The notes: generated by a model from the letters alone, not told the origin. DNA of 64,000 nucleotides from Vulcanimicrobiota bacterium (GCA_017307785.1 JAFKGI010000012.1:64001-128000); one strand, 5' to 3'. Positions 25,182 to 37,773 are shown, counted from the stretch's first letter. Numbers and translations are program-made.

Positions 25182-26425
25182 GACGCCGCCGACAAGCTTT
25201 CATCCTTCCTCTGGCCGTTTTGCTCTGCTTCTTGATGTTGCTCATCGCCTTCGTACTGCAGGATCAAAGCCGCAAGCAGATGCGCTTTGCTTCGCTGCAG
25301 GTACGCGCCGAGCAGGCGGCCAATGCGGCGGACGCGGGTCTCGTCATCGCGCTGCAACAGCTGGCCAGCAACCCGGCCTACACGGGCGTAAGCACGCTGC
25401 AGACGCTGGCGGAAGGTCCAGAAACCTATAAAATTGCCATTCTGCAGGCCGGAGCCAGCATGCCCGACGGACAAACCGTGCCCAGCGGCAATCTGTTCGC
25501 ACTGGCCAGCGGTTACAGTCTGGGCAACGCCAACGCCAGAAGCGGAGCCCTGGTCAAGGTCGGCACGAGCGGTAGCAAAGGTCTACCCGGCGTCTACGGT
25601 AGCAGCGTGCGACTTTCTGGTGGCGCCTTCGTGGATTCTTACAACAGCACCAAGGGCGCCTACTTGATCGGCTCCAAGAACGGCAGCGTCTTGACCAATT
25701 CGACCAGCGCGGGCTCGGTCATCATCGAAGGCGCGTCGCAGATCTACGGCCCGGTTTCCATCGGTCCCAAGGGGGTCCTGGATCCAAACAGTTCGGGCGG
25801 TACGACCATGAATAGCGCTTATACGGTCTGGCGCGACTGGAGCACCAGCTATGTTTCCTCGAGTCTGCAGACCAGCGCCAAGGACATGCCGGCCGTCACC
25901 CTTCCGTCGGCGGTCGGCAAAACCAGCGTCTCCATGAGTTGGGGAACCAACACGCTGGCACCCGGCAACTATGACTCCGTCTCCATCGGCAATGCGGGCA
26001 CCCTCACGCTCAAGGCGGGTGTCTATGTGATGAACAGCTTCAGCATTGGAGGTGGCGCCAACATTCAGGTCGCCGGCGATGGCCCGGTTCAGATCTACGT
26101 TGCCAAGTCGTTCAGTCTGAACAATGGCGCCGTGGTCTCCAATTCCAAGGTCAGTCCATCCCTGCTCCAGATCAATATGGCCGATGGTTCCACCTACGAC
26201 CAGCAAGGCGGCACTCAGCTGACGGGAGTCGTCTATGGGCCCAGTGCCACCGCCAACTTGAGCAATGGCTCCACCATCTATGGGTCCCTGTCCGGAAACA
26301 GCGTGAAGATCGCGGGCGCTTCCTGGGTTCACTACGATGAGGCGCTCAGTGAATTCTCGCTGGGCGGCAGCAGCTCCAGCGGCAGCACCTCCGGGCTTAC
26401 CGTACTCTTTCGCCAGCGCTGGTAG
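25178..26425 (+). CDS. large minor-pseudopilin/pilus-associated protein (GspK/PilX-like)
   Basis: N-terminal TM anchor (AFILPLAVLLCFLMLLIAFVL) followed by a Gly/Ser/Thr-rich extracellular beta-rich domain; 415 aa. Assigned by context within the pseudopilin run. Confidence 0.4.
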   Translation: MRRRRQAFILPLAVLLCFLMLLIAFVLQDQSRKQMRFASLQVRAEQAANAADAGLVIALQQLASNPAYTGVSTLQTLAEGPETYKIAILQAGASMPDGQTVPSGNLFALASGYSLGNANARSGALVKVGTSGSKGLPGVYGSSVRLSGGAFVDSYNSTKGAYLIGSKNGSVLTNSTSAGSVIIEGASQIYGPVSIGPKGVLDPNSSGGTTMNSAYTVWRDWSTSYVSSSLQTSAKDMPAVTLPSAVGKTSVSMSWGTNTLAPGNYDSVSIGNAGTLTLKAGVYVMNSFSIGGGANIQVAGDGPVQIYVAKSFSLNNGAVVSNSKVSPSLLQINMADGSTYDQQGGTQLTGVVYGPSATANLSNGSTIYGSLSGNSVKIAGASWVHYDEALSEFSLGGSSSSGSTSGLTVLFRQRW

Positions 26426-26457
26426 GGAAGCCTCAGTTCCAATCCGAAGCACAGGCG

Positions 26458-27459
26458 GTGCTTTGGGGCAAGAAAATCCAACTGGGAATCGACGTCGGAA
26501 GCGACTCTATCAAGGTATGTACCTTAGAGAGCAACGGCACTTCTTGTAGCGTAGCTTTGCATCCGCTACTACCACACCGTTCCAGCCAGGAACAGATGCT
26601 GGAGGGGCCGGCTCTGAGTCAACGGCTGAGCTCTCTGGCCGCTGAGCTCAAGGCGAAGGGCAAAGGGAAGGCCCATCTTTCCCTGCACGCTCCCACCACG
26701 GCCAGCGGTTACCTGGAACTCCCCAAACTGAGCATGGATAAGCTACAGGTAGCCATTCCCTCGGCGGTCGCCCGCGAGATTCCCCACTCGCTTCAGGAAG
26801 TCAACCTGTTCCCGATGCCGGTCCCGAGTTTGGGCGACACCACCATGCAGGGCATCTTCTTTGTGGCCGTTCCCAAGACGATTCAGGATGCCCAAACCCG
26901 GTCTTTCACGCAAGCAGGCTTTGAGGTCGGCAGCGGCGAGCCCGGCCTGCTGGCCTGCCTGCGGGGACTCACCAAGAATGTGGCCCTTCCGGCCGAGCAA
27001 GTCACCGCTCTCGTCCTGTCCGGTTACCAGCGCACTTCGGTTGTCCTGCTCAAGGGTCCTCACCCTTACTTCTGCCGCGAGTTCCGACTGGCCGGCAGCG
27101 ACTTTACCTACGCCTTCCAAATGGGAGACCAGGTCGATTGGGCCGAGGCGGAACGCCGCAAGCTGCAGTACGACGTCGGCGAAAAGGACTTCAAGGTGGA
27201 ATCCTTCGTGCAGCGTTGGCTGGGTGACGTGCAGCGCTCGCTGACCTACGCGTCTCAAAAGCACGCCCAGCTGGTGCCCACCCAGGTCATACTCAGCGGG
27301 GGCACCGCCCTCTGGAGGGGTCTGGCGGAACGCTTGAGCGAGTTCCTGAACCTGCCCGTGCAGCGTCACCAATGGGATCGCCTGAAGTTGAGCGGCAGCA
27401 GCGGTCCGAGCGAGATCGCGCTCTATGATGAAGCCATCGGCCTGGTGTGCCGCTCTTGA
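26458..27459 (+). CDS. PilM/actin-like pilus assembly ATPase-fold protein
   Basis: GTG start. N-terminal LGIDVGSDSIKV phosphate-1 motif of the actin/Hsp70-like PilM family and C-terminal ILSGG(TA) phosphate-2-like motif (VILSGGTAL). Confidence 0.55.
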   Translation: MLWGKKIQLGIDVGSDSIKVCTLESNGTSCSVALHPLLPHRSSQEQMLEGPALSQRLSSLAAELKAKGKGKAHLSLHAPTTASGYLELPKLSMDKLQVAIPSAVAREIPHSLQEVNLFPMPVPSLGDTTMQGIFFVAVPKTIQDAQTRSFTQAGFEVGSGEPGLLACLRGLTKNVALPAEQVTALVLSGYQRTSVVLLKGPHPYFCREFRLAGSDFTYAFQMGDQVDWAEAERRKLQYDVGEKDFKVESFVQRWLGDVQRSLTYASQKHAQLVPTQVILSGGTALWRGLAERLSEFLNLPVQRHQWDRLKLSGSSGPSEIALYDEAIGLVCRS

Positions 27460-29093
27460 GCTGGCTGGAACGGCTCAATCTGGACGAAGATCAGCTGCAA
27501 CAGCTGCGCCAGGCCGTCGAGCCTCTGGAAATGGTTTTGGACCGCAAGTGGGCCACGGAATGCGAGGCCTTTCAGGCCGCCTCTCTGCACTACAACTGCC
27601 CGGTGCTTTCGTTAAGACGTTATCAGCCGGATCCGGAAGCGGTGCGCCTGCTCAGTGAGCAGCAGGCCCGCCGCGTGCGCTCCGTGCCACTCTTCCGCGT
27701 AGGCAATCGCCTCTACCTGGCGGTCGCCGATCCCGAGAATCTGCAAAATCAGGACTTTGTGGCCCAATTGACCGGCTGCGTCATCGAGCCCGTGCTGGCC
27801 CTGAGCAAAGACATCGACGAAGCGTTGAACCGGTCGATGATTACCGATGAACGTTCCAGCCAGACGCTGGAAGCGATTACCGCTGACGTAGTGGGCGAAA
27901 CAAAGATCATCCAGCAGTCGGCGGTCATCGAGGACCGAGACGTTCCCACCGTCAAGCTGGTGGACCACATCATCATGCAGGCCATTCGTCTCGGCGCTAG
28001 CGACCTGCATCTGGAAGCCTTTCCCCACAAAGTTCTGCTCCGCTACCGTATCGACGGTCAACTCCGAGAATTTCCCGCGCCCCCGAAAGCGATTTACGCA
28101 GCCGTAGTCTCCCGCATCAAGATCACCTCGAGCCTGGACATTGCCGAACGACGATTACCGCAAGACGGACGCGCCAGCATCTACGTCGACGACAAAAAAT
28201 ACGATCTTCGTGTGTCCATCATTCCCAACGTTCACGGCGAAGGCATCGTCATCCGCATTCTGAATCCACACGCGGTTTCCATGAACCTCACCGCTCTCGG
28301 TTTCGAACGCGACATTCTGGAGCGCTACGAACGCATTCTGGCCCGGCCTCACGGAGTTGTGCTGGTCACGGGACCCACCGGTTCGGGTAAATCGACGACG
28401 CTTTATGCGACCTTGAACGGCATCAGCGGAATTGCCAAAAAGATTATCACCTTGGAAGACCCCGTCGAGTATCAGCTCGCCAACATCACCCAGATCCAAA
28501 TTCAGCCGGAAATTGGCTACACCTATGCCCAGGGCTTGCGCGCCATTCTACGTCACGATCCCGACGTAGTGCTGATTGGTGAAATCCGCGACCTGGAGTC
28601 GGCTCAAATCGCGATCCGTGCGGCTCTCACGGGCCACCAGATGTTCTCCACTCTGCACACCAACGATGCCCCGCAAGCTGTAACCCGCCTGCTGGATATG
28701 GGCATTCCGTTTTATCAGCTGCAGGCCGCTTTGAACGGCATTCTGGCCCAACGGCTGGTAAGGCGACTTTGTCCCAGGTGCCGCCGGCCCGACGAGGGTT
28801 CGCTGGACGCTTTGCTCGACCTGGGCCTGCGAGCCGACCAGGAGACGTTCGCCGGGGTGGGCTGTCCCGAGTGCAACAACATCGGCTACAAAGGCCGCGT
28901 GGCGGTGCATGAACTGCTCGACTTCACGCCCAGTCTGCGCCGGCTGCGCGGAGACCAGATCAATGCGGAAGACATCGCCCATCAGGCGGCCTCGGAAGGC
29001 GCCTTCTTCACCATGGCGGACAGTCTCCGTCGCAAGGTCCTATCTGGCGTAACCAGCGTGGCGGAAGCTTTAGAACTTCTTCACGTAGACTGA
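27447..29093 (+). CDS. GspE/PilB-family secretion ATPase
   Basis: Walker A VLVTGPTGSGKSTTLYA, Asp box, Walker B (VVLIGEIRD), His box, and a C-terminal tetracysteine motif (CPRC...CPEC); N-terminal GspE-N-like domain. 548 aa. Confidence 0.9.
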   Translation: MPLLSWLERLNLDEDQLQQLRQAVEPLEMVLDRKWATECEAFQAASLHYNCPVLSLRRYQPDPEAVRLLSEQQARRVRSVPLFRVGNRLYLAVADPENLQNQDFVAQLTGCVIEPVLALSKDIDEALNRSMITDERSSQTLEAITADVVGETKIIQQSAVIEDRDVPTVKLVDHIIMQAIRLGASDLHLEAFPHKVLLRYRIDGQLREFPAPPKAIYAAVVSRIKITSSLDIAERRLPQDGRASIYVDDKKYDLRVSIIPNVHGEGIVIRILNPHAVSMNLTALGFERDILERYERILARPHGVVLVTGPTGSGKSTTLYATLNGISGIAKKIITLEDPVEYQLANITQIQIQPEIGYTYAQGLRAILRHDPDVVLIGEIRDLESAQIAIRAALTGHQMFSTLHTNDAPQAVTRLLDMGIPFYQLQAALNGILAQRLVRRLCPRCRRPDEGSLDALLDLGLRADQETFAGVGCPECNNIGYKGRVAVHELLDFTPSLRRLRGDQINAEDIAHQAASEGAFFTMADSLRRKVLSGVTSVAEALELLHVD

Positions 29094-29324: not shown

Positions 29325-29452
29325 AGTGAATGTCTCCAATTCTTTGGCGGACATCCGGTCCGCGTTGGACTTAGAGTAAAGCATTCAGCCCGAGGTCACG
29401 AGAAATACTCGTACGTTTGCTGCCGGATCGGTATACCCGCCTCGGCAGGACT

Positions 29453-30568
29453 CTAGAATTTATAGCTCTGTCCCAAAAAGAAAGTGTTCTGTTGGCGAAC
29501 GCTGCGACCAGCCCGGTCAAAAACCGCCCGGTCGGCGTGGTCAAAGCGGAAGTCCATGCGAACCACCCAGTCTTCGGTGATGCGATACTCTGGAGTCACC
29601 GTAAAGCCACTGTAGTGAGCCCCGGGCAAAATACGGGCTCCGTCCGGATCGTTGAACCACTCCTGGCGAAAATTGAGAGAAAACTGGTCGCTCAGTCGGT
29701 TCGTCCAATACAGTACCAGGGAATTCCAATGAGCGGTGCCGCCGTCCCATCTCAGGCCTTGCTCGCGCGCCCGCATCACCTCGGCCCCCAGGGTGATTTC
29801 TTCGGTCACCTTGTAATTGGCAATCAGCTCCCAAAGCTGACGCTGGTTCCGATCATTACGGATCTGTTCGGCCCCCTGATAAAAGTTGGCCACCAACGAA
29901 AAATCGTCGGTCGGGTGAAAGTTGACCTGCGCCCCTACTGACAGGGAGTTGTTGGTGTCCTGAAAGCTATCCGCTCCCAAGACCAGCAGGCCGGTCACCG
30001 AGACGGTGTCGTCGATGGGATAGGTCGCCCTCACACCGGTATGAGTGAAAGGGGAATAGGTAAATGTCAGGGCTCGAGTAGCGTTCGGATTGCGCCCATC
30101 GACCCCGTCCATCACCTCGTAGCCCACGTGACTGGCGAATTTGCCCACGTCCACGCGCAATCCGTTAGCGAAGGTGTGGCTGACGAAGGCCTGGCGAATG
30201 TCAAAATCGGTGTTACTGTATCCGGAATAAGCATCGCGGAACAGTCCTGAGGCAGCATCGACTCGCGGCATGCTGCCGCCGCCCGTGACCTCCAACCGAA
30301 AACCGGTCCGGTCCGCCTCATCCAGCGCGTATTGTAAATTCAGGTCGAGGACATCCAGGCGCAAGCGATCCGTGCGTTCATCGTAGCCGTGGTAAAGGTT
30401 CCGGCCGTCAGCGGGCCGGTTGAAGTTGGTACTGAAACTACTCTGCACATAGCCGTTGAACTTCAGCTCCGGCTCGATCTCCGCCGGCTGGGCCACCTGC
30501 GTGGGAGCCTCAGGGGGTGCTTGCGCGGCGACCGGAATCGTTAGTAGCAGGAAAAGCCCGTTGCGCAT
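29453..30568 (-). CDS. outer-membrane beta-barrel protein (porin-like)
   Basis: Signal peptide MRNGLFLLLTIPVAAQA, alternating amphipathic beta-strand pattern, and a C-terminal aromatic-x-aromatic terminus ...GQSYKF. The start overlaps the stop of the upstream BNR gene. Confidence 0.55.
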   Translation of the reverse strand: MRNGLFLLLTIPVAAQAPPEAPTQVAQPAEIEPELKFNGYVQSSFSTNFNRPADGRNLYHGYDERTDRLRLDVLDLNLQYALDEADRTGFRLEVTGGGSMPRVDAASGLFRDAYSGYSNTDFDIRQAFVSHTFANGLRVDVGKFASHVGYEVMDGVDGRNPNATRALTFTYSPFTHTGVRATYPIDDTVSVTGLLVLGADSFQDTNNSLSVGAQVNFHPTDDFSLVANFYQGAEQIRNDRNQRQLWELIANYKVTEEITLGAEVMRAREQGLRWDGGTAHWNSLVLYWTNRLSDQFSLNFRQEWFNDPDGARILPGAHYSGFTVTPEYRITEDWVVRMDFRFDHADRAVFDRAGRSVRQQNTFFLGQSYKF

Positions 30569-31692
30569 CAGTATTTGCCGCTACCCACCGGCAGTTTCGG
30601 TTTCCGCGGCAGAGACTGACGAGCCAATTTTAGAACCAGCTGGCCGGCCTCTTGCTCCTGCCAGACGATTACGTACTGTTCCTGGTTCCAGACCATGGTA
30701 GGCAGACCCGATGGACCTGGAGACTGGCTGATATTCTGAGGGACGGTAAAAGTCGCGCCGCCGTCGCTCGACTGAACGAGGAAGATGTCCGGGTTGGAGC
30801 CGCTCTGGCTGGAATCCACCCAGGCCACCGCCAGACGGTCCGATTCGGCTGAGGCAAGACAGGGGTCTGTGGACTCGGCGGGGGTATCGAAAAAGATAGG
30901 GGCAGAAAAAGTCCCGTCGTTCTGGGAACGGGAGAAGTAGATGTCCCAGACGGAACTGGAGCGCGAATTGTCCATCCAGGCCAGGTAGACCTGATGGGAT
31001 CCGCTGACCAGAATCGCAGGGGACTGCGACCGCCCGGCCGTTCTGCTGACGTTCCGCGGAGCGCTCCAGCCGCTCGGAGCTCTCTCCGTCGCGAAGACGT
31101 CCGGGCGTTGATTTCCCGAGGTCGTGTCCAACCAGGCGACCTGCACCGAGGCGTCCGCACCAGCGGATACGGTTGGTTGGCTGGAGACCCCGGGGGTTTT
31201 CGAGAGATTGAGACCTTGACTCCACACGAGACTCTGCTGATTGGAGTAGCTGTAAAAAACGTCGGGGGATGCGCTCGAACGCTCCACCCAGACCGCGTGC
31301 AAACCGTCGTCCTGGTCGATAGCAAGATCCGGGCTGTCGGCCCTGCCGGCAAAAACCGTGGTCGGCGGGGCGAAAGTGCGGCCATCAGCCGAACGAGAAA
31401 AAACAACCTGACCATCTTCGAGCCAGAGTACCTCAGGAGTGCCCTTGCTATCCACCACCAGGCTAGCCTGTGTGGAGGTTGCCGGCGAGTGGCACACAGC
31501 CGCTTCCTCAGTCCAGCTCTGACCGTTGTCCTGACTGGATCGCAGCCAGATGTCACCGTCTCTTTCGTAAGCCAGCCAGAGTCGACCGCTCCCATCGCGG
31601 CAAAGGTCCGGATTCTGCCCCCGGCCGATCGGGACCGAATCCGCGAGGGCCAGTCCAGATAGGAGCAGCCAGACGACCAGGCTCTTTCTCAT
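30568..31692 (-). CDS. BNR/Asp-box repeat beta-propeller protein (sialidase-like fold), secreted
   Basis: Signal peptide MRKSLVVWLLLSGLALA; multiple S-x-D-x-G-x-(T/S)-(W/F) Asp-box motifs (SQDNGQSW, SADGRTF, SSDGGATF). Confidence 0.65.
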   Translation of the reverse strand: MRKSLVVWLLLSGLALADSVPIGRGQNPDLCRDGSGRLWLAYERDGDIWLRSSQDNGQSWTEEAAVCHSPATSTQASLVVDSKGTPEVLWLEDGQVVFSRSADGRTFAPPTTVFAGRADSPDLAIDQDDGLHAVWVERSSASPDVFYSYSNQQSLVWSQGLNLSKTPGVSSQPTVSAGADASVQVAWLDTTSGNQRPDVFATERAPSGWSAPRNVSRTAGRSQSPAILVSGSHQVYLAWMDNSRSSSVWDIYFSRSQNDGTFSAPIFFDTPAESTDPCLASAESDRLAVAWVDSSQSGSNPDIFLVQSSDGGATFTVPQNISQSPGPSGLPTMVWNQEQYVIVWQEQEAGQLVLKLARQSLPRKPKLPVGSGKY

Positions 31693-33161
31693 GGCTTGAT
31701 CAAGTAATAGAGATCCGTTTCCCAGAGCTGCTGCTCCTGGGGGAAGGTAACTCGGTAGACTCCCCAGGGAGCTTCATCGCATTGCAGGCGTTGCTCGACC
31801 GCCCAATGACGCATTTCTTCATAGCGCTTGGGTAGATTCTGGTAGTCCGCGCCTTTGTGGGTCAGGGTAATGACCTGACCCTCAGGGAGGCTTCCCGCTT
31901 CAATTCTGCCGCCGGGAGAGGGCATCTTTTTGGGTAAAACCACACCCGCCTCGATATCGGCCTCGGTGTTGGAAAACTTATGCCAGCGTAAGTAACCCGG
32001 CGCCTGAATGCCGGCGGCCCTGGTGTAGTCAGCAATCTCGGCCGACATACGGCTGACCGCGGTCTCCAGCTCGCCCAACTGGGACACCTTCTCGCGTAGA
32101 AACCAGGTCGGCCGGGCCGGCTCGCCCACCACGCGAATGGTTGCCGGCGGTAAACCGTCGGGGTTGAGATGGGGAGAGGGAGTCGCACGAACGGAAGGGG
32201 TCGGCGTTGGGCTGGCCGGAGAGAGACTGTGGAGCAGAGGTTTCACGCCGATCAGTCCCAGACCCAGAAGCAAAACCCCGGCGGTCCCGGCTCTTTTGGG
32301 CCAGGGATTGGGCCGAGCCGGCGCAACATAAGGGCGAGTCAAAAAATCCCGCATCTCGGCGGCATTCTGGAAGCGCTGGTCGGGGTCCAGGCTCAGCACC
32401 TTGTCCACCGTCTCGGCAAGCTGAGGCTCGATATCTCCTCGCAACGCCAGCACCGGAATGTATCTTCCCATTTGAATAGGCTGCCCGGTCAGCAGCAAGT
32501 AGAGCGTAGCTCCCAAAGCATAAAGGTCGGAGCGGACGTCGGCTTTCCCAAGCATTTGCTCGGGCGGGCAGAACATCAGAGTGCCCGCCGTGGTCTGGGT
32601 GTGCTCCGAGGTCCCGCGAGCCAGTCCGAAGTCAACCAGGTAGAGTTTCCCGTTCTCGGTATCCCGAATGATGTTGGCCGGTTTGACGTCGCGGTGAATG
32701 ATCGGGGGGGCCAGAGAGTGCAGATACTCGAGCACTCCCAACATCTCCAGCGCAATGCTGCGCGCCAGCGAGCAGTCGATGCCCTTTTTCTCCGCTTTCA
32801 GGGCCAGTTCTAACTCGTGATGGAGAGTCACCCCCTGGATAAAATCCATCACGATATAGCAGAGGACACCTCCCTCTCGCTCCAACTGAAAGAAATCGCG
32901 CACGCGGGGGATGTTGGGATGCTGCAACTGACTCAGTAAGTTGGCTTCTTCGCGGAAGCGGCGGCTCACCCAGGTGTCGTCGGTGGGATGCATCTCCTTG
33001 ATAGCGCAGGGGCCGTCCAGGTTCTCGTCGTGGGCCAGATAGATGGATCCCATGCCACCGGACTTGAGCACGGTGTTGACGTGATAGCGCTGCTGCAGGA
33101 CCTCTCCGGACTTCAAGGACACGCTCCCCCGTTCGCGACCGCATAGCGAATTACTGCTCAA
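31689..33161 (-). CDS. Ser/Thr protein kinase with C-terminal GyrI-like ligand-binding domain
   Basis: Hanks kinase motifs (GGMGSIYLA, AIKEM, HRDVKPANII, DFGLA, GT..FCPPE). The C-terminal ~150 aa resemble GyrI-like/AraC effector-binding domains (GVVLPKKMP...GQVITLTHKGADYQNL...WGVYRV). 490 aa. Confidence 0.8.
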   Translation of the reverse strand: MSSNSLCGRERGSVSLKSGEVLQQRYHVNTVLKSGGMGSIYLAHDENLDGPCAIKEMHPTDDTWVSRRFREEANLLSQLQHPNIPRVRDFFQLEREGGVLCYIVMDFIQGVTLHHELELALKAEKKGIDCSLARSIALEMLGVLEYLHSLAPPIIHRDVKPANIIRDTENGKLYLVDFGLARGTSEHTQTTAGTLMFCPPEQMLGKADVRSDLYALGATLYLLLTGQPIQMGRYIPVLALRGDIEPQLAETVDKVLSLDPDQRFQNAAEMRDFLTRPYVAPARPNPWPKRAGTAGVLLLGLGLIGVKPLLHSLSPASPTPTPSVRATPSPHLNPDGLPPATIRVVGEPARPTWFLREKVSQLGELETAVSRMSAEIADYTRAAGIQAPGYLRWHKFSNTEADIEAGVVLPKKMPSPGGRIEAGSLPEGQVITLTHKGADYQNLPKRYEEMRHWAVEQRLQCDEAPWGVYRVTFPQEQQLWETDLYYLIKP

Positions 33162-33291
33162 ACTTTTGTCTCGGTCTCTACCGGGACGGGCAACCTGCCT
33201 TTGGGTATCGACTTACCTGGAGCGAAACGGCCAGGCGGCGTAATCTGAGGGCAAGCAAAACGACACAAAACGTTTTCACACACAGGAGGTA

Positions 33292-33705
33292 ATGATTATG
33301 CGAAAGTTTCTTTTAAGTGCTGGACTCTTTGCTACGATGGCCGCTTCGGCGTTCGCCCAGGGTGGAGGCATCCTGCAGCCCGGTAGCACCATGTATCCTG
33401 GTCAGGTAGCCTGGTCGCCCAACGGCGCCTACCACCTGAACTTCCAGGAAGACGGCAACCTGGTGCTCTACAACAACGGCGGCGCCGTGATGTGGGCCAC
33501 CGAGACCAACGGCGCTCCAGCCACCGAGCTGCGTATGCAGACCGACGGTAACCTGGTGATGTATGGCAACGGTCAGACCCTGTGGTCATCCAACACCGCC
33601 GGCCACCCGGGCGCTCAGTTCCGGATCCAGAATGACGGTAACATGGTGCTTTACAGCCCTCGTCAGCGCGTTCTCTGGGCTTCTGAGTCCAACGGCAACG
33701 GCTAA
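33292..33705 (+). CDS. secreted B-type (bulb-type, mannose-binding) lectin domain protein
   Basis: AGGAGG ribosome-binding site; signal peptide; three Q-x-D-x-N-x-V-x-Y subdomain motifs (QEDGNLVLY, QTDGNLVMY, QNDGNMVLY) with conserved W/N spacing. Single domain, 137 aa. Confidence 0.8.
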   Translation: MIMRKFLLSAGLFATMAASAFAQGGGILQPGSTMYPGQVAWSPNGAYHLNFQEDGNLVLYNNGGAVMWATETNGAPATELRMQTDGNLVMYGNGQTLWSSNTAGHPGAQFRIQNDGNMVLYSPRQRVLWASESNGNG

Positions 33706-33723
33706 CGCACTCTTTGAATCACC

Positions 33724-33752
33724 GGCCCCCTCTACGGAGGGGGCTTTTTTCG
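33724..33752 (+). terminator. rho-independent terminator
   Basis: GCCCCCTC-TACG-GAGGGGGC perfect 8-bp GC stem followed by TTTTTT, directly after the lectin stop. Confidence 0.7.
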
Positions 33753-33771
33753 TTTGCGAGAAGCGCTGGCC

Positions 33772-34203
33772 ATGGGCGACGACAAGTGGCTGGCTACAAT
33801 CAAGGAATTTTTTGAAGAGCGCATTGCTTTCGACAAGCATCTGGGCCTGTGCATCCAGGACATCCGGCCCGGCTGGGTCCGGGTTCGCCTGCCTTTCAAA
33901 CCCGAGTTCCTCGGGGACCCTTTCCGTCAGGCTCTGCATGGAGGCGTCATCTCCACGGTAGTCGACGCGGCTGCCGGAGCAGCCGCGCTGTCCACTCTCC
34001 CCTATGGTAGTCGCTGCAGCACGGTGGACATGCGTGTCGATTACCTGCTTCCCGCGCAACCGGAGGAGCTTGTGGCGGAAGCGACGGTGGTCCGTTCGGG
34101 AAATCAGGTAGCCGTCATCGATGTGGAAGTTTTTCAAGGTGCAAACCAGCGCATCGCCAGCGGGCGAACAGTCTACAGTTTGAAGGCGGCAACTCCCCAA
34201 TGA
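33772..34203 (+). CDS. PaaI/hotdog-fold thioesterase family protein
   Basis: ATG at 33772. Hotdog thioesterase pattern (HLGLCIQDIRPGWVRVRLPF...LHGGVISTVVDAAAGAAA...SRCSTVDMRVDYL...GNQVAVIDVEV). Confidence 0.7.
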   Translation: MGDDKWLATIKEFFEERIAFDKHLGLCIQDIRPGWVRVRLPFKPEFLGDPFRQALHGGVISTVVDAAAGAAALSTLPYGSRCSTVDMRVDYLLPAQPEELVAEATVVRSGNQVAVIDVEVFQGANQRIASGRTVYSLKAATPQ

Positions 34204-34961
34204 AACAATGGATTCTCATCGCACTCCTGAGCAGCCTGGCCTGGAGTCAACCCATTCAGGTAGACCCGAAGGAGGCTCAGTCGGCCGGATTGCGGGTGTG
34301 GAAGAATGAATGTTCCGGCACGGTCGAGGGATTGACCTCCTGGAATTACGGCGAAGAGTTTCCCTCATTGGGAATCGGACACTTCATCTGGTATCCCGAG
34401 GGCCGCAGCGGTCCTTTCCAGGAAAGCTTTCCCCAACTGATCGCCTTCTTGCGCGAACGCCATTCCGACGTTCCTAAGTGGATCCCGGCCGCCTGTCCCT
34501 GGCCGGACCGTCAGTCCTTTCTGGCCGACTATAACGGCGCCAAACTGAAAGAACTGCGGCGCTATCTGGCTTCTCGGGTGGGAGATCAGACCCAGTTCAT
34601 GGTTGCTCGGCTTCAGGAAGCCCTCCCCAAGATGATGGAAATCGGCCGCAATCCAGATCAGATCAAGCAACGTTTCCATACATTACTGAAAACGCCGGGC
34701 GGAACCTACGCCCTGCTGGACTACGTCAACTTTAAAGGTGAGGGAATCAAAGATACTGAGCGATACGCCGGTAAAGGCTGGGGACTTCTTCAGGTACTGG
34801 AGGAATGCGACGCAGGAACATTCGCTCGCAATCCTCTCGCCGCTTTCAGCAAATCGGCCGAACTGGTGCTGCGCCGCCGCGTGCGAAACTCCCCGCCCGA
34901 CCGGGGAGAACAGCGCTGGTTGACGGGATGGATGAACCGGGTTCACGGCTACCAACAGTAG
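34200..34961 (+). CDS. secreted hypothetical protein
   Basis: ATGA overlap with the upstream thioesterase; signal peptide MKQWILIALLSSLAWS; 253 aa, no motif recognised. Confidence 0.45.
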   Translation: MKQWILIALLSSLAWSQPIQVDPKEAQSAGLRVWKNECSGTVEGLTSWNYGEEFPSLGIGHFIWYPEGRSGPFQESFPQLIAFLRERHSDVPKWIPAACPWPDRQSFLADYNGAKLKELRRYLASRVGDQTQFMVARLQEALPKMMEIGRNPDQIKQRFHTLLKTPGGTYALLDYVNFKGEGIKDTERYAGKGWGLLQVLEECDAGTFARNPLAAFSKSAELVLRRRVRNSPPDRGEQRWLTGWMNRVHGYQQ

Positions 34962-35076: not shown

Positions 35077-35442
35077 ATGAAAAAGATGATTTGTGCAGGA
35101 CTCGTCGTTCTGGCCAGCCTGGCCGCCTCCGCGGCCCCGGTCACCAGTGGAATGGTCACCGGCACCACACGCAACGGCGTCTACCTGGCCAACAATCAGG
35201 GGGTCACTTTCATCCCCTACTCGCAGGCACAGTTTCGCCTGAACGGTCGTCGCATCGCTGACCGCCAGGTCGTGGACGGGATGCGCGTGACGGTCTACCC
35301 GCAAGGAAACTTCCAAACCCAGTACGTGCCACAGGCCTTCTACAACAGCCACCGGAACTGGGACTGGAACCAGCAGCAGACCGGCTGGAACCAGGACCGC
35401 AGCCACTGGCGCCAGGACCGTATGGGCTGGCACCGCTACTAA
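35077..35442 (+). CDS. small secreted hypothetical protein
   Basis: ATG at 35077 with GGAGGA upstream; signal peptide MKKMICAGLVVLASLAASAAP; Trp/Asn/Gln-rich C-terminus. Confidence 0.5.
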   Translation: MKKMICAGLVVLASLAASAAPVTSGMVTGTTRNGVYLANNQGVTFIPYSQAQFRLNGRRIADRQVVDGMRVTVYPQGNFQTQYVPQAFYNSHRNWDWNQQQTGWNQDRSHWRQDRMGWHRY

Positions 35443-35758: not shown

Positions 35759-36412
35759 ATGATGTTGGACACGATTTTAATCATCGAAGACGACCCTTCG
35801 ATCGCAGAACTCCTCACCCTGACCCTGGAACAAGAAGGATTTCGCAGCCTTTGGGCCAGTGACGGAGGCCTGGGCTGGGAAATGTTCCAGAGCGAGAGCC
35901 CCGCGGCGGTCCTCCTCGACCTGCGCCTTCCTCGCCTGAGCGGTCTGGAAGTTCTGCGCAACATTCGCAAGCAATCGGAAATACCGGTGCTCATCATGTC
36001 GGTGAAGGACCAGGAATCCGACAAAGTGGCAGGCCTCGAACTCGGTGCCGATGATTACGTCACCAAGCCCTTCTCGCCGCGAGAGCTTATGGCGCGGCTG
36101 CGACGGAATCTGCGCAAAGGCAAGCTGACTCAGACCCAGATGGGCCACCTGCGCGTGGACTGGCAGCGGGCCGACGTATTCCGAGACGAAGCTCGCGTAC
36201 TGTTGACCGCACGAGAATTTGAAGTGCTGCGTGTCCTCTACGAGAACCGAGAACGCGTTTTGGAACGAGACTCCCTGCTCGAAAAGGTGTGGGGATACGA
36301 CTTTGAAGGCGACGCGCGAGTGGTCGACACCACCATCAAGCGCCTCCGTGGCAAGGTGGGCCAGAATTTGATCGAGACGGTTCGCGGCCTGGGATATCGC
36401 CTGGCCTTGTGA
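35759..36412 (+). CDS. OmpR/PhoB-family response regulator
   Basis: Receiver domain (ILIIEDDPS...LLDLRLP...KPF) plus a winged-helix trans-regulatory C-terminal domain (RVDWQRADVFRDEARVLLTAREFEVLRVL...YRL). Confidence 0.9.
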   Translation: MMLDTILIIEDDPSIAELLTLTLEQEGFRSLWASDGGLGWEMFQSESPAAVLLDLRLPRLSGLEVLRNIRKQSEIPVLIMSVKDQESDKVAGLELGADDYVTKPFSPRELMARLRRNLRKGKLTQTQMGHLRVDWQRADVFRDEARVLLTAREFEVLRVLYENRERVLERDSLLEKVWGYDFEGDARVVDTTIKRLRGKVGQNLIETVRGLGYRLAL

Positions 36413-37773
36413 AACGACCGCCTTCCTGGCTGCTGGCCGTCCTCTTCCTGGTTGCACTGGGCAGCTTCATCTCTCTATTGCTCAGTCGCTTCGAAACTCA
36501 ATCCCTGAATGAACTCGAAGGTTACATGCTGTCGGTGGGACGCCCGGTGGCCGAGTTCGCGGGCCAGGGCCTGGAATCCGACAAACTACCAAACCTGGAG
36601 CGCCTGGCTCGGGCGACCCAGACCGCCAGTGGTTGCCGCATTCGCATTCTGGACCGGGAACGTCGGCTGCTGGTGGACTCGTTAGGGGCCGGCCCGCAGC
36701 AGAACAGCGTTGCCTTTCGCGTCGAGGTCAGCGAAGCCCTGAAAGGCCACTATAGCGGCTACACGCGCCTTAGCGACGAAAGCCCGATGTCGCTGGCTCT
36801 GTATACGGCGATTCCCATCAACATCGCCAATCGCGTGGCGGGAGTAGTCTACGTCTCTCATACCACCGACGAAATCCTCCAGCGCCTGGGCGACCTTCGT
36901 CGCATGCTCCAGCGGATCGTGGTCCTGCTGGCCCTGTCCGCCTTCGTGATGTCGCTCTACTATTCGGGCCAGTGGAGAGGCAGCCTGAAACGACTGCGCC
37001 AGCGCGCCGGCCAGTTGGAGGGAGGAGACGACGTCGAAGCCATCGGTCAGGGCATCGACAAACTGGTCGCCTCGCTGCAGACTCAGGTGGCCCAGCTCGA
37101 AGAGGAGAAGTTAAAGACCCGCCTGTTCCTCGAGGATGTTGCTCACGAACTGAAAACACCGATCACTGGGGTCAGCGGTTCGGTGGAATCCCTGCTTGTC
37201 GAGAAGGACGATGATCGCCGTCTGCGCCTGCTGCACACCCTGGACCGTGAAACCCGGCGCCTTTCGGAACTGGTCGGTCGTCTGGTGGAACTACAGAACC
37301 TGGATTACTACGAACTGCGCTGCCAGTCGCTGGAGCTCTGCTCCCTGCTTCAGACGGTCGTCGATACCTTTGAGGGCGAAGCCGAGAAGAAGCAGATCCG
37401 GCTGGGCCTGGAGGGCATCGACGAAGAGGAAGAGCCGCGTTTGTGCGTCTGGGGCGACGCCGACAAACTGCTGGTGGTGCTGGGCAACCTGGTGGACAAT
37501 GCGTTGCGCTGCTCACCGCAGCAAAGCCGCGTGGACGTAACCGTCACGCGCGAAGGCGATTCGGTGACCGTAGCCGTGCTGGATGAAGGACCGGGCTTCC
37601 AACACTCGCTCATCGCCCGCCGGCAACGCGCCGGCGACTCGTCCAATCTGGGCAGTTCCGGTCTGGGCCTGGCCATCGCCAGCCGCATCGTGGCCCTGCA
37701 CGGGGCCGAACTCGATGTTCGCTCCCGGCCCGAAGGAGGCTCCTGCGTGCAGTTCCGGCTGCGCGTCAGCTAG
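36409..37773 (+). CDS. sensor histidine kinase
   Basis: GTG start overlapping the regulator's stop. Two TM segments and a periplasmic domain; H-box HELKTPITGV, N-box LGNLVDNALRCS, G-boxes DEGPGF and GSSGLGLAIA. Confidence 0.9.
   Translation: MKRPPSWLLAVLFLVALGSFISLLLSRFETQSLNELEGYMLSVGRPVAEFAGQGLESDKLPNLERLARATQTASGCRIRILDRERRLLVDSLGAGPQQNSVAFRVEVSEALKGHYSGYTRLSDESPMSLALYTAIPINIANRVAGVVYVSHTTDEILQRLGDLRRMLQRIVVLLALSAFVMSLYYSGQWRGSLKRLRQRAGQLEGGDDVEAIGQGIDKLVASLQTQVAQLEEEKLKTRLFLEDVAHELKTPITGVSGSVESLLVEKDDDRRLRLLHTLDRETRRLSELVGRLVELQNLDYYELRCQSLELCSLLQTVVDTFEGEAEKKQIRLGLEGIDEEEEPRLCVWGDADKLLVVLGNLVDNALRCSPQQSRVDVTVTREGDSVTVAVLDEGPGFQHSLIARRQRAGDSSNLGSSGLGLAIASRIVALHGAELDVRSRPEGGSCVQFRLRVS

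What the first reader, a model, noticed from the sequence alone, without database searches (positions are those of the whole stretch)
33292..33705. Stand-alone secreted single-domain B-type (monocot mannose-binding) lectin with its own strong terminator
The three canonical Q-x-D-x-N-x-V-x-Y subdomain motifs are all intact (QEDGNLVLY, QTDGNLVMY, QNDGNMVLY), which predicts three functional mannose-binding pockets. Bacterial B-lectin domains are best known as the receptor-binding modules of lectin-like bacteriocins (LlpA type), which have two tandem domains. A 137-aa single-domain secreted form with a strong ribosome-binding site, a long 5' leader (~130 nt) and a dedicated terminator is an independently expressed unit. 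It could act in adhesion or recognition, or as a minimal antibacterial lectin.
Basis: partly seen in the sequence, partly recalled or inferred. Interest (0 to 1): 0.55.

Follow-up and report, generated by a model that had tools for sequence, protein, structure and literature searches.

The report
Small exported bacterial mannose-type lectin
This is a real, conserved gene for a small exported sugar-binding protein of the snowdrop-lectin type in an uncultured Eremiobacterota/Vulcanimicrobiota bacterium; it belongs to a widespread, already noticed but untested class of bacterial single-domain lectins, and it lacks the tail that makes related Pseudomonas proteins antibacterial.

Summary
The ORF encodes a B-lectin (PF01453, 47.8 bits against a cut-off of 32.4). 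It has three intact QxDxNxVxY motifs, the tryptophan triad, a Sec signal peptide, a strong Shine-Dalgarno sequence and a conserved intrinsic terminator. One correction: the start is ATG 33298, giving 135 aa, not 33292.

It is not a fragment. All 16 closest homologues are 115-136 aa, and dN/dS is 0.09-0.18. AlphaFold2 gives a confident beta-prism II domain whose best matches are monomeric mannose lectins.

The "minimal bacteriocin" reading is disfavoured:
- LlpA and LlpB act on BamA through a C-terminal peptide (about 32 aa in LlpB). Here only 8 residues follow the last tryptophan.
- The gene scores 102 bits against a 275-bit cut-off for the putidacin family.
- Its GC content matches that of the window (llpB genes are GC-poor).

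Sec-signal mono-B-lectins without a C-terminal extension were already noted in the LlpB paper. They are common: 62 of 120 homologue clusters here.

The "long leader" is a divergent intergenic region with no detectable RNA structure.

The most likely function is a periplasmic or released multivalent binder of mannose or 6-deoxymannose glycans, for adhesion or glycan capture. This is a new member of a known kind and of low interest.

The parts
33298..33705 (+). Lectin gene: 135-aa precursor and stop codon.
   Evidence: ORF; PF01453 at 47.8 bits, above the 32.4 gathering score; the identical 135-aa product is on record on 13 contigs; dN/dS 0.09-0.18 against close orthologues
33298..33357 (+). Sec-type signal peptide MRKFLLSAGLFATMAASAFA, with predicted cleavage AFA|Q. 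There is no cysteine, so it is not a lipoprotein in this genome.
   Evidence: Sequence; MRK, a hydrophobic core and AxA|Q are conserved in orthologues; residues 1-20 have pLDDT below 50
33358..33702 (+). Mature 115-aa beta-prism II lectin domain (12.3 kDa, pI 5.0, no Cys). It ends 8 residues after the last core tryptophan and has no C-terminal extension.
   Evidence: AF2 pLDDT 94-98 for residues 31-130; Foldseek best matches 4pdt/4tkc/1xd5/1xd6, rmsd 1.2-1.6 A; protein properties
33445..33471 (+). Sugar-binding motif 1, QEDGNLVLY (residues 50-58 of the 135-aa form)
   Evidence: Q50 and D52 nearly invariant; G53, N54, V56, L57 and Y58 invariant
33538..33564 (+). Sugar-binding motif 2, QTDGNLVMY (residues 81-89)
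   Evidence: Q81, D83, V87 and Y89 invariant; G84 and N85 nearly invariant
33628..33654 (+). Sugar-binding motif 3, QNDGNMVLY (residues 111-119)
   Evidence: Q111, D113, G114, N115, V117 and Y119 invariant
33284..33289 (+). Shine-Dalgarno sequence AGGAGG (conserved block AGGAGGTAA), 8 nt upstream of ATG 33298
   Evidence: Invariant in five relatives
33204..33217 (+). Conserved palindrome GGTA-N6-TACC, 81-94 nt upstream of the start codon. It is a candidate operator for a dimeric regulator (inference).
   Evidence: Half-sites invariant in 5 relatives while the spacer varies; single occurrence in the window, 0.10 expected
33724..33755 (+). Intrinsic terminator: 9-bp GC-rich stem, 4-nt loop and a T tract
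   Evidence: Scan; z = -3.6; conserved in L001, L005 and L014 with loop and stem changes that keep pairing

Best explanation
The gene encodes a small soluble lectin. It is made as a 135-aa precursor and exported across the inner membrane by the Sec pathway. Signal peptidase I cuts it after AFA to give a 115-aa, 12.3-kDa beta-prism II domain.

Each of the three subdomains keeps the full Q-x-D-x-N-x-V-x-Y pocket. One protomer should therefore bind up to three mannose-type residues (D-mannose, or its 6-deoxy form D-rhamnose). Oligomers, if formed by the strand exchange usual in this family, would be more multivalent still.

The host phylum is diderm, so the protein acts either in the periplasm or, after release by an unidentified route, on or outside the cell surface. 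There it would bind and cross-link mannose- or rhamnose-containing polysaccharides. These could be the cell's own envelope or matrix, or foreign cell walls. It has no catalytic or toxic module, so its role would be adhesion, matrix organisation or glycan capture.

In this clade it is an independently transcribed gene that has been inherited vertically.

Shown: the fold family, motif integrity and conservation, the signal-peptide features, purifying selection, the stand-alone architecture, and terminator conservation. Inferred: actual sugar binding, sugar identity, oligomeric state, final location and biological role.
For: - Family: PF01453 above threshold. Sequence matches to solved B-lectins reach E 1e-25.
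- Structure: a confident AF2 model (pLDDT 94-98 over the domain). Its best structural matches are mannose-binding beta-prism II lectins, including mannose complexes 4tkc, 1bwu and 1msa.
- Binding sites: all three motifs and the Trp triad are invariant or nearly invariant across 21 homologues down to 40% identity, and nearly invariant across 60 homologues.
- Selection: dN/dS 0.09-0.18 among close orthologues.
- Export: signal peptide with a conserved AxA|Q site.
- Diderm context: a BBP2 outer-membrane porin lies 3 kb away, and the phylum's cultured member has an outer membrane with LPS (PMC9758169).
- Native gene: GC 60.5% against 59.8% for the window, and GC3 within the range of its neighbours.
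- Autonomy: the Shine-Dalgarno sequence, upstream block and terminator are conserved. The upstream region is kept across a 3.7-kb indel of the neighbouring genes.
- No conserved partner: the gene neighbourhood differs in the 53-55% identical homologues.
Against: - No binding data exist for this protein or for any close relative.
- Motif integrity does not fix specificity. LlpA C-domains with the same motif prefer D-rhamnose (PMC6465234, PMC3916391 abstract).
- No route across the outer membrane is identified, so the protein may never leave the periplasm.
- The ligand and the benefit to the cell are unknown.
- The AF2 model is a monomer by construction and says nothing about oligomerisation.
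- In the SCN 62-11 relative the gene has no terminator and sits 3 nt upstream of a response-regulator/GGDEF gene. The 'independent unit' status is therefore specific to this clade.
Confidence: 0.62

Rival explanations
1. It is a minimal lectin-like bacteriocin of the LlpB type. The single lectin domain docks on a competitor's LPS and BamA and kills it by blocking outer-membrane protein assembly.
For: - The best sequence matches in the PDB are pyocin L1/L2 and putidacin L1 (E about 1e-25).
- NCBIfam LLB_putidacin is the only NCBIfam hit.
- LlpB shows that a single B-lectin domain can be bactericidal (PMC6465234).
- Some LlpAs carry Sec signals (PMC6240691).
Against: - LlpA and LlpB are defined by a C-terminal extension (about 32 aa in LlpB) rich in aromatic and basic residues. 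This peptide pairs with BamA beta-strand 1 and is the inhibitory element, with a [W/Phi]-x-[W/Phi]-x-[W/H] motif (bioRxiv 10.64898/2026.09.25.754295). Here the protein ends ASESNGNG, 8 residues after the last core Trp, with no hydrophobic dyad, and all orthologues end the same way.
- It scores 102 bits against a 275-bit cut-off for LLB_putidacin, and the match covers only the C-domain half of the model.
- It resembles the sugar-binding C-domain (52 bits) more than the BamA-binding N-domain (41 bits) with which LlpBs cluster.
- All three sugar motifs are intact, whereas LlpA/B motifs are unevenly degenerate.
- GC content equals that of the window, whereas llpB genes have about 47% GC against about 60% for their genomes.
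- The gene sits at one syntenic locus in relatives of 68-100% identity, not patchily. No prophage or tailocin genes are among those called in the 16 kb around it.
Confidence: 0.07
2. It is a secreted antifungal or anti-eukaryote defence lectin. It would bind mannan or high-mannose glycans on fungal, algal or protist surfaces, like the monomeric plant lectin gastrodianin.
For: - The best structural matches include the monomeric antifungal gastrodianins 1xd5/1xd6 (rmsd about 1.5 A, 35-37% identity) and a fungal mannose lectin.
- Three canonical mannose pockets, as in plant GNA-type lectins.
Against: - Structural similarity within one fold family does not transfer biological activity.
- Release across the outer membrane is undemonstrated.
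- Nothing in the gene neighbourhood points to antagonism.
Confidence: 0.12
3. It is a strictly periplasmic glycan-binding protein. It would work with envelope biogenesis or with the neighbouring genes (thioesterase, 253-aa and 121-aa exported proteins, OmpR-type two-component system), for example by holding or sensing a mannose- or rhamnose-containing envelope polymer.
For: - It has a Sec signal only, and the organism is diderm.
- The gene order lectin, 4HBT thioesterase, 253-aa, 121-aa, response regulator, histidine kinase is kept in relatives down to 68% identity.
Against: - A conserved terminator separates the lectin from the downstream genes.
- The synteny disappears in the 53-55% identical homologues, so it is most simply explained by shared recent ancestry.
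Confidence: 0.17

Closest known systems
Bacterial mono-B-lectin-domain proteins without a C-terminal extension, often with a Sec signal (noted by Ghequire and De Mot 2019, PMC6465234; function untested)
   Same: Single PF01453 domain, N-terminal Sec signal, no C-terminal extension and about 115 aa when mature. The architecture is common: 62 of 120 homologue clusters are single-domain and at most 170 aa, and 18 of the 80 best genome hits are at most 161 aa.
   Different: The paper lists examples from Actinobacteria and Firmicutes. This one comes from Eremiobacterota/Vulcanimicrobiota, a diderm phylum. All three sugar motifs are intact.
LlpB / LlpA lectin-like bacteriocins of Pseudomonas (putidacin L1, pyocin L1/L2)
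   Same: The same B-lectin fold, and the best sequence matches in the PDB (E about 1e-25). LlpB is also single-domain.
   Different: It lacks the C-terminal BamA-binding peptide. It is below the family cut-off (102 against 275 bits). It carries a Sec signal, which most Llps lack. Its GC content is native and the locus is syntenic among relatives. It resembles the C-domain rather than the N-domain.
Plant and fungal GNA-type mannose lectins (snowdrop GNA 1msa, gastrodianin 1xd5/1xd6, Marasmius oreades lectin 4pdt/4tkc)
   Same: About 110-aa beta-prism II domain, Trp triad, and three QxDxNxVxY pockets as in GNA. Model rmsd is 1.2-1.6 A to the monomeric members.
   Different: Bacterial origin, 28-42% identity and no cysteines. 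Oligomeric state is unknown.
Mycobacterium smegmatis lectin MSL (4oit; B-lectin plus LysM)
   Same: A bacterial B-lectin domain of similar size, 38% identical.
   Different: MSL is fused to a LysM peptidoglycan-binding domain and crystallises as a domain-swapped dimer. This protein has no anchoring domain.
UmbA lectin modules of Streptomyces umbrella toxin particles (9oee)
   Same: A B-lectin domain used by bacteria to recognise cell-surface glycans (E 1.3e-8; Foldseek rmsd 1.3 A).
   Different: There the lectin is one module of a 696-aa chain in a multiprotein toxin complex. Here it is a free domain with no partner genes.

Membership tests
B-lectin / GNA-type (monocot mannose-binding, beta-prism II) domain, Pfam PF01453 | Profile match above Pfam's gathering score | tested here: met
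   47.8 bits against a cut-off of 32.4, E 2.3e-12
B-lectin / GNA-type (monocot mannose-binding, beta-prism II) domain, Pfam PF01453 | Beta-prism II fold of three four-stranded subdomains | tested here: met
   AF2 model with pLDDT 94-98 over residues 31-130. Foldseek probability 1.00 with TM (target) 0.86-0.87 and rmsd 1.2-1.6 A to 4pdt, 4tkc and 1xd6. This rests on a predicted structure, not a solved one.
B-lectin / GNA-type (monocot mannose-binding, beta-prism II) domain, Pfam PF01453 | Core tryptophan triad, one Trp per subdomain | tested here: met
   W66, W96 and W127 are invariant in 21 homologues
B-lectin / GNA-type (monocot mannose-binding, beta-prism II) domain, Pfam PF01453 | QxDxNxVxY sugar-binding motif in the subdomains | tested here: met
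   All three are present and conserved
B-lectin / GNA-type (monocot mannose-binding, beta-prism II) domain, Pfam PF01453 | Actual binding of mannose or related sugars | not testable with these tools
   Needs recombinant protein with a glycan array, ITC or a mannose-agarose pull-down
Lectin-like bacteriocins LlpA/LlpB (NCBIfam NF033557 LLB_putidacin) | Family profile score above the curated cut-off | tested here: not met
   102.4 bits against a cut-off of 275. The best stretch covers model positions 141-241 of 274 only.
Lectin-like bacteriocins LlpA/LlpB (NCBIfam NF033557 LLB_putidacin) | C-terminal extension (about 32 aa in LlpB) carrying an aromatic/hydrophobic dyad that pairs with BamA beta-strand 1 | tested here: not met
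   The protein ends ...VLWASESNGNG, 8 residues after W127. All orthologues end within a few residues of the domain. Feature definition taken from PMC6465234 and bioRxiv 10.64898/2026.09.25.754295.
Lectin-like bacteriocins LlpA/LlpB (NCBIfam NF033557 LLB_putidacin) | Lectin domain groups with LlpA N-terminal (BamA loop 6-binding) domains | tested here: inconclusive
   phmmer scores are higher for the C-domain (52 bits) than the N-domain (41 bits) of pyocin L1. No phylogeny was built.
Lectin-like bacteriocins LlpA/LlpB (NCBIfam NF033557 LLB_putidacin) | Signs of horizontal acquisition: low GC, patchy distribution, prophage or tailocin association | tested here: not met
   GC 60.5% against 59.8% for the window. 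The gene is at the same locus in relatives of 68-100% identity.
Lectin-like bacteriocins LlpA/LlpB (NCBIfam NF033557 LLB_putidacin) | Bactericidal activity against related strains | not testable with these tools
   Needs spot assays with purified protein
Sec-exported soluble protein (signal peptidase I substrate) | Basic n-region, hydrophobic h-region, AxA cleavage site and no lipobox cysteine | tested here: met
   MRK / FLLSAGLFATMAA / SAFA|Q, with zero Cys in the whole protein. Judged by eye and a hydropathy rule, because no dedicated predictor was available. Some orthologues (P0003-P0007) carry a Cys at position 16, so a lipoprotein form cannot be excluded for them.

The most novel reading that the evidence does not exclude
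The protein, and with it the large untested class of Sec-exported, tail-less mono-B-lectins, is an antagonistic or predation-related effector. It would act by lectin binding alone, for example by agglutinating competitors' or prey cells or by blocking mannose- or rhamnose-bearing surface polymers on them. That would be a killing or immobilising mode distinct from the BamA beta-signal mimicry of LlpA/LlpB.
Probability: 0.07. Interest if true: 0.6.

Novelty: new member of a known kind. Interest (0 to 1): 0.15.

Why it matters
It matters little on its own. It extends a well-known lectin fold, and an already noted but uncharacterised bacterial architecture, to the poorly studied phylum Eremiobacterota/Vulcanimicrobiota.

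Its practical value is modest. It is a 12-kDa, cysteine-free lectin with three intact pockets and would be easy to express. It could serve as a glycan probe, or as a negative control for the role of the C-terminal peptide in lectin-like bacteriocins.

The biological role of the whole class of bacterial mono-B-lectins is still unknown, so an experimental answer for any one member would be informative.

Tried and rejected
- Fragment of a larger gene: rejected. The 16 closest homologues are 115-136 aa, the stop codon and terminator are conserved, and dN/dS is low.
- Structured 5' leader or riboswitch: rejected. Nothing from Rfam falls in 33162-33297. Folding energy is no better than shuffles (z = +0.85). 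The RNAalifold covariation term is unfavourable on 5 sequences.
- Sigma-70-type promoter: the consensus scan found none in 32800-34300. A conserved TAnnCT hexamer and the palindrome GGTA-N6-TACC were seen by eye but could not be assigned.
- Functional linkage to the divergent Ser/Thr kinase: rejected. The kinase-BNR-BBP2 block is missing in L001-L004, where only a 29-nt match to the kinase gene remains, while the lectin and its upstream region are retained.
- Operon with the downstream thioesterase, the 253-aa and 121-aa proteins and the two-component system: not supported. A terminator lies in between, and the synteny is lost at 53-55% identity.
- Paralogues in the window: none (tblastn).
- Lipoprotein: rejected for this genome, because the protein has no Cys.
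- Literature search for characterised bacterial secreted single-domain beta-prism II lectins: nothing beyond the LlpA/LlpB papers.
- Not run, because judged unnecessary: the 1.84-billion-protein representative search, the second structure job and the metagenome scan.

Full report
**Observation**

The window has an ORF at 33292..33705 on the + strand. Its product matches Pfam B_lectin PF01453 above the curated threshold (E 2.3e-12, 47.8 bits against 32.4). By sequence it also matches many solved B-lectins. These include pyocin L1/L2 and putidacin L1 (E about 1e-25), the Mycobacterium smegmatis lectin MSL, gastrodianin, and the snowdrop, daffodil and garlic agglutinins.

In an alignment of 21 homologues spanning 40-97% identity, nearly every motif residue is invariant or more than 90% conserved. 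So are the three core tryptophans W66, W96 and W127 (135-aa numbering). The same columns stay nearly invariant in a 60-sequence alignment. The motif match is therefore not spurious.

**Start codon**

AGGAGG lies at 33284-33289. Only the second ATG is conserved in relatives. The 135-aa sequence read from 33298 is on record as a called gene product on 13 public contigs. The gene is therefore 33298..33705, and the precursor is 135 aa.

**Export**

The N-terminus is MRKFLLSAGLFATMAASAFA|QGGG. It has a basic n-region, a hydrophobic core and an AxA cleavage site, and these are conserved across orthologues. The mature protein is 115 aa, 12.3 kDa, pI 5.0, with no cysteine. I judged the signal peptide by eye and by a hydropathy rule, because no dedicated predictor was available. 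Five orthologues (P0003-P0007) carry a Cys at position 16 that loosely fits a lipobox. This genome and several others do not, so lipidation is not the conserved mode.

**Fold**

AlphaFold2 with the 60-sequence alignment gives pLDDT 94-98 over residues 31-130 and an all-beta architecture. Foldseek against the PDB returns beta-prism II lectins with probability 1.00. The best matches are the Marasmius oreades mannose lectin (4pdt/4tkc) and the gastrodianins described as monomeric (1xd5/1xd6), at rmsd 1.2-1.6 A. LlpA, pyocin L1, MSL and the classical bulb lectins follow.

**A real, complete and native gene**

- The 16 closest homologues are all 115-136 aa single-domain proteins.
- Pairwise dN/dS against orthologues of 68-85% protein identity is 0.09-0.18.
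- Gene GC is 60.5% against 59.8% for the window, and GC3 (0.74) lies within the range of the neighbouring genes (0.66-0.82).
- There is no paralogue in the window.

**Organism**

The nearest named relatives are 'Candidatus Eremiobacteraeota bacterium' (85% identity, GCA_019637395.1), a 'Vulcanimicrobiota bacterium' MAG (81%) and 'bacterium SCN 62-11' (53%). The cultured member of this phylum has a Gram-negative envelope with an outer membrane and LPS (PMC9758169). The window itself encodes a BBP2 outer-membrane porin 3 kb away (232 bits). A Sec signal therefore delivers the protein to the periplasm. Any further release needs a route that I could not identify.

**Transcription unit**

*Terminator.* Downstream, a 9-bp GC-rich hairpin with a T tract lies at 33724-33755. 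The terminator scan detects it. It folds much better than shuffles (z = -3.6, 0 of 200 shuffles as good). It is conserved in the three other close lineages examined, with changes that keep the pairing. It is absent in the 53% identical SCN 62-11 homologue. There the lectin gene ends 3 nt before a response-regulator/GGDEF gene and follows an ECF sigma-factor gene.

*Upstream region.* The 136 nt between the divergent kinase gene and the lectin start contain three conserved elements:
- the Shine-Dalgarno block;
- a conserved TAnnCT hexamer;
- a 14-bp palindrome GGTA-N6-TACC at 33204-33217. Its half-sites are invariant in five lineages while the spacer varies. It occurs once in the window, against 0.10 expected.

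No Rfam family matches in this region. Folding energy is no better than shuffles (z = +0.85), and the alignment fold has an unfavourable covariation term. There is thus no evidence for a structured leader. The region is better read as a promoter/operator region, although the sigma-70 consensus scan found nothing.

*Neighbouring indel.* The kinase-BNR-BBP2 block (window about 29437-33156) is missing in the L001-L004 lineage, where only a 29-nt match to the kinase gene remains. Homology resumes at 33157. The lectin's regulatory region therefore travels with the lectin, not with the kinase.

**Neighbourhood**

The order lectin, 4HBT thioesterase, 253-aa protein, 121-aa protein, OmpR-type regulator, histidine kinase is kept in relatives down to 68% identity. 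It is replaced by unrelated genes in the 53-55% identical homologues. Given also the intervening terminator, I read this synteny as shared ancestry rather than a functional cassette.

**Comparison with lectin-like bacteriocins**

Single-domain lectin-like bacteriocins do exist: LlpB (Ghequire and De Mot 2019, PMC6465234). However, LlpA and LlpB are defined by a lectin domain, or two, plus a C-terminal extension. In LlpB it is about 32 aa and rich in aromatic and basic residues.

A 2026 preprint (bioRxiv 10.64898/2026.09.25.754295) shows that this peptide pairs with BamA beta-strand 1 as a beta-signal mimic. Its core motif is [W/Phi]-x-[W/Phi]-x-[W/H], and it is the inhibitory element shared across the family.

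The evidence against membership is as follows:
- The protein here ends ...VLWASESNGNG, 8 residues after the last core tryptophan. All orthologues end the same way.
- It scores 102 bits against a 275-bit cut-off for NCBIfam LLB_putidacin, matching only the C-domain half of the model.
- It resembles the sugar-binding C-domain of pyocin L1 (52 bits) more than the BamA-binding N-domain (41 bits). LlpBs cluster with the N-domain.
- It lacks the low-GC, patchy, prophage-linked signature described for llpB.

Two defining features were thus tested and not met, so I do not file it as an Llp bacteriocin. A signal peptide is not in itself an argument against membership, because a few LlpAs have one (PMC6240691).

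**How unusual is the architecture?**

It is not unusual. [quoted passage not shown]

The hits cover Actinomycetota, Myxococcota, Proteobacteria, Bacteroidota, Cyanobacteria, Acidobacteriota, Chloroflexota and Saccharibacteria.
- Of the 80 best hits, 18 are single-domain ORFs of at most 161 aa. Of these, 16 have three intact motifs and 16 have at most 4 residues after the domain. The rest are tandems of 2-6 domains or fusions.
- Among 120 homologue clusters, 62 are single-domain and at most 170 aa. Of those, 40 have three intact motifs, 51 have a tail of at most 10 aa, and 38 have a hydrophobic signal-like N-terminus.

**Mechanism**

The best-supported account is a Sec-exported soluble lectin with three mannose-type pockets per 12-kDa protomer. 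It would bind and, through multivalency, cross-link mannose- or 6-deoxymannose-containing polysaccharides in the periplasm or at or beyond the cell surface. Its role would be adhesion, matrix organisation or glycan capture.

The fold, the motifs, conservation and the export signal are shown. Sugar binding, specificity, oligomeric state, final location and biological role are inferred. The rivals, each with its refuting experiment, are given in the structured sections of this report: an LlpB-like bacteriocin, an antifungal lectin, and a strictly periplasmic envelope factor.

**Verdict**

The gene is a new member of a known kind in an under-studied phylum. Interest is low (0.15).

Noticed in passing
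window 33204-33217: A 14-bp palindrome, GGTATCGACTTACC (GGTA-N6-TACC), lies 81-94 nt upstream of the lectin start. The half-sites are invariant in five lineages (68-100% protein identity) while the spacer varies. It occurs once in the window, against 0.10 expected. It is a candidate operator for an unknown dimeric regulator.
   Followed up: partly
window 29437-33156: The block encoding the BBP2 porin, a BNR-like 374-aa exported protein and a Ser/Thr kinase with a weak GyrI-like C-terminal match is an indel. It is present in the window, L005 and L006. In L001-L004 about 295 bp replace it, and only a 29-nt match to the kinase gene remains.
   Followed up: partly
window 34200-34961: A 253-aa protein with a hydrophobic, signal-peptide-like N-terminus has no Pfam hit (E up to 0.1) and no PDB sequence hit (E up to 1). 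Its start overlaps the stop of the 4HBT thioesterase gene by 4 nt (ATGA), which suggests translational coupling. It is conserved next to the thioesterase in all relatives down to 68% lectin identity.
   Followed up: partly
window 35077-35442: A 121-aa protein with a hydrophobic, signal-peptide-like N-terminus has a C-terminus rich in W, N, Q, R and H (…NSHRNWDWNQQQTGWNQDRSHWRQDRMGWHRY). It has no meaningful Pfam match. It is conserved upstream of the OmpR-type two-component system at 35759-37773.
   Followed up: no
window about 25298-29093 (and further upstream): A type II secretion / type IV pilus-like cluster (T2SSF, two small ORFs, DUF7305, PilM, T2SSE/MshEN ATPase) lies 4-8 kb upstream of the lectin and is conserved in all close relatives. 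No secretin gene was among those called in the loci examined. Any link to release of the lectin is pure speculation.
   Followed up: no
L010 6391-9346 (bacterium SCN 62-11 lineage): The 53% identical lectin homologue sits in a different context: YCII, an ECF sigma factor (Sigma70_r2/r4_2 plus DUF6596), the lectin, then a response regulator with a faint GGDEF match only 3 nt downstream. There is no terminator, so there it is probably co-transcribed with signalling genes.
   Followed up: partly
P0003-P0007 (orthologues, 72-85% identity), residue 16: These orthologues have a Cys inside the signal peptide (…TMAC|SAFAQ or …TLAC|SAFAQ) that loosely fits a lipobox. The window protein has Ala there and no Cys at all. 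The mode of anchoring may differ between close lineages.
   Followed up: no
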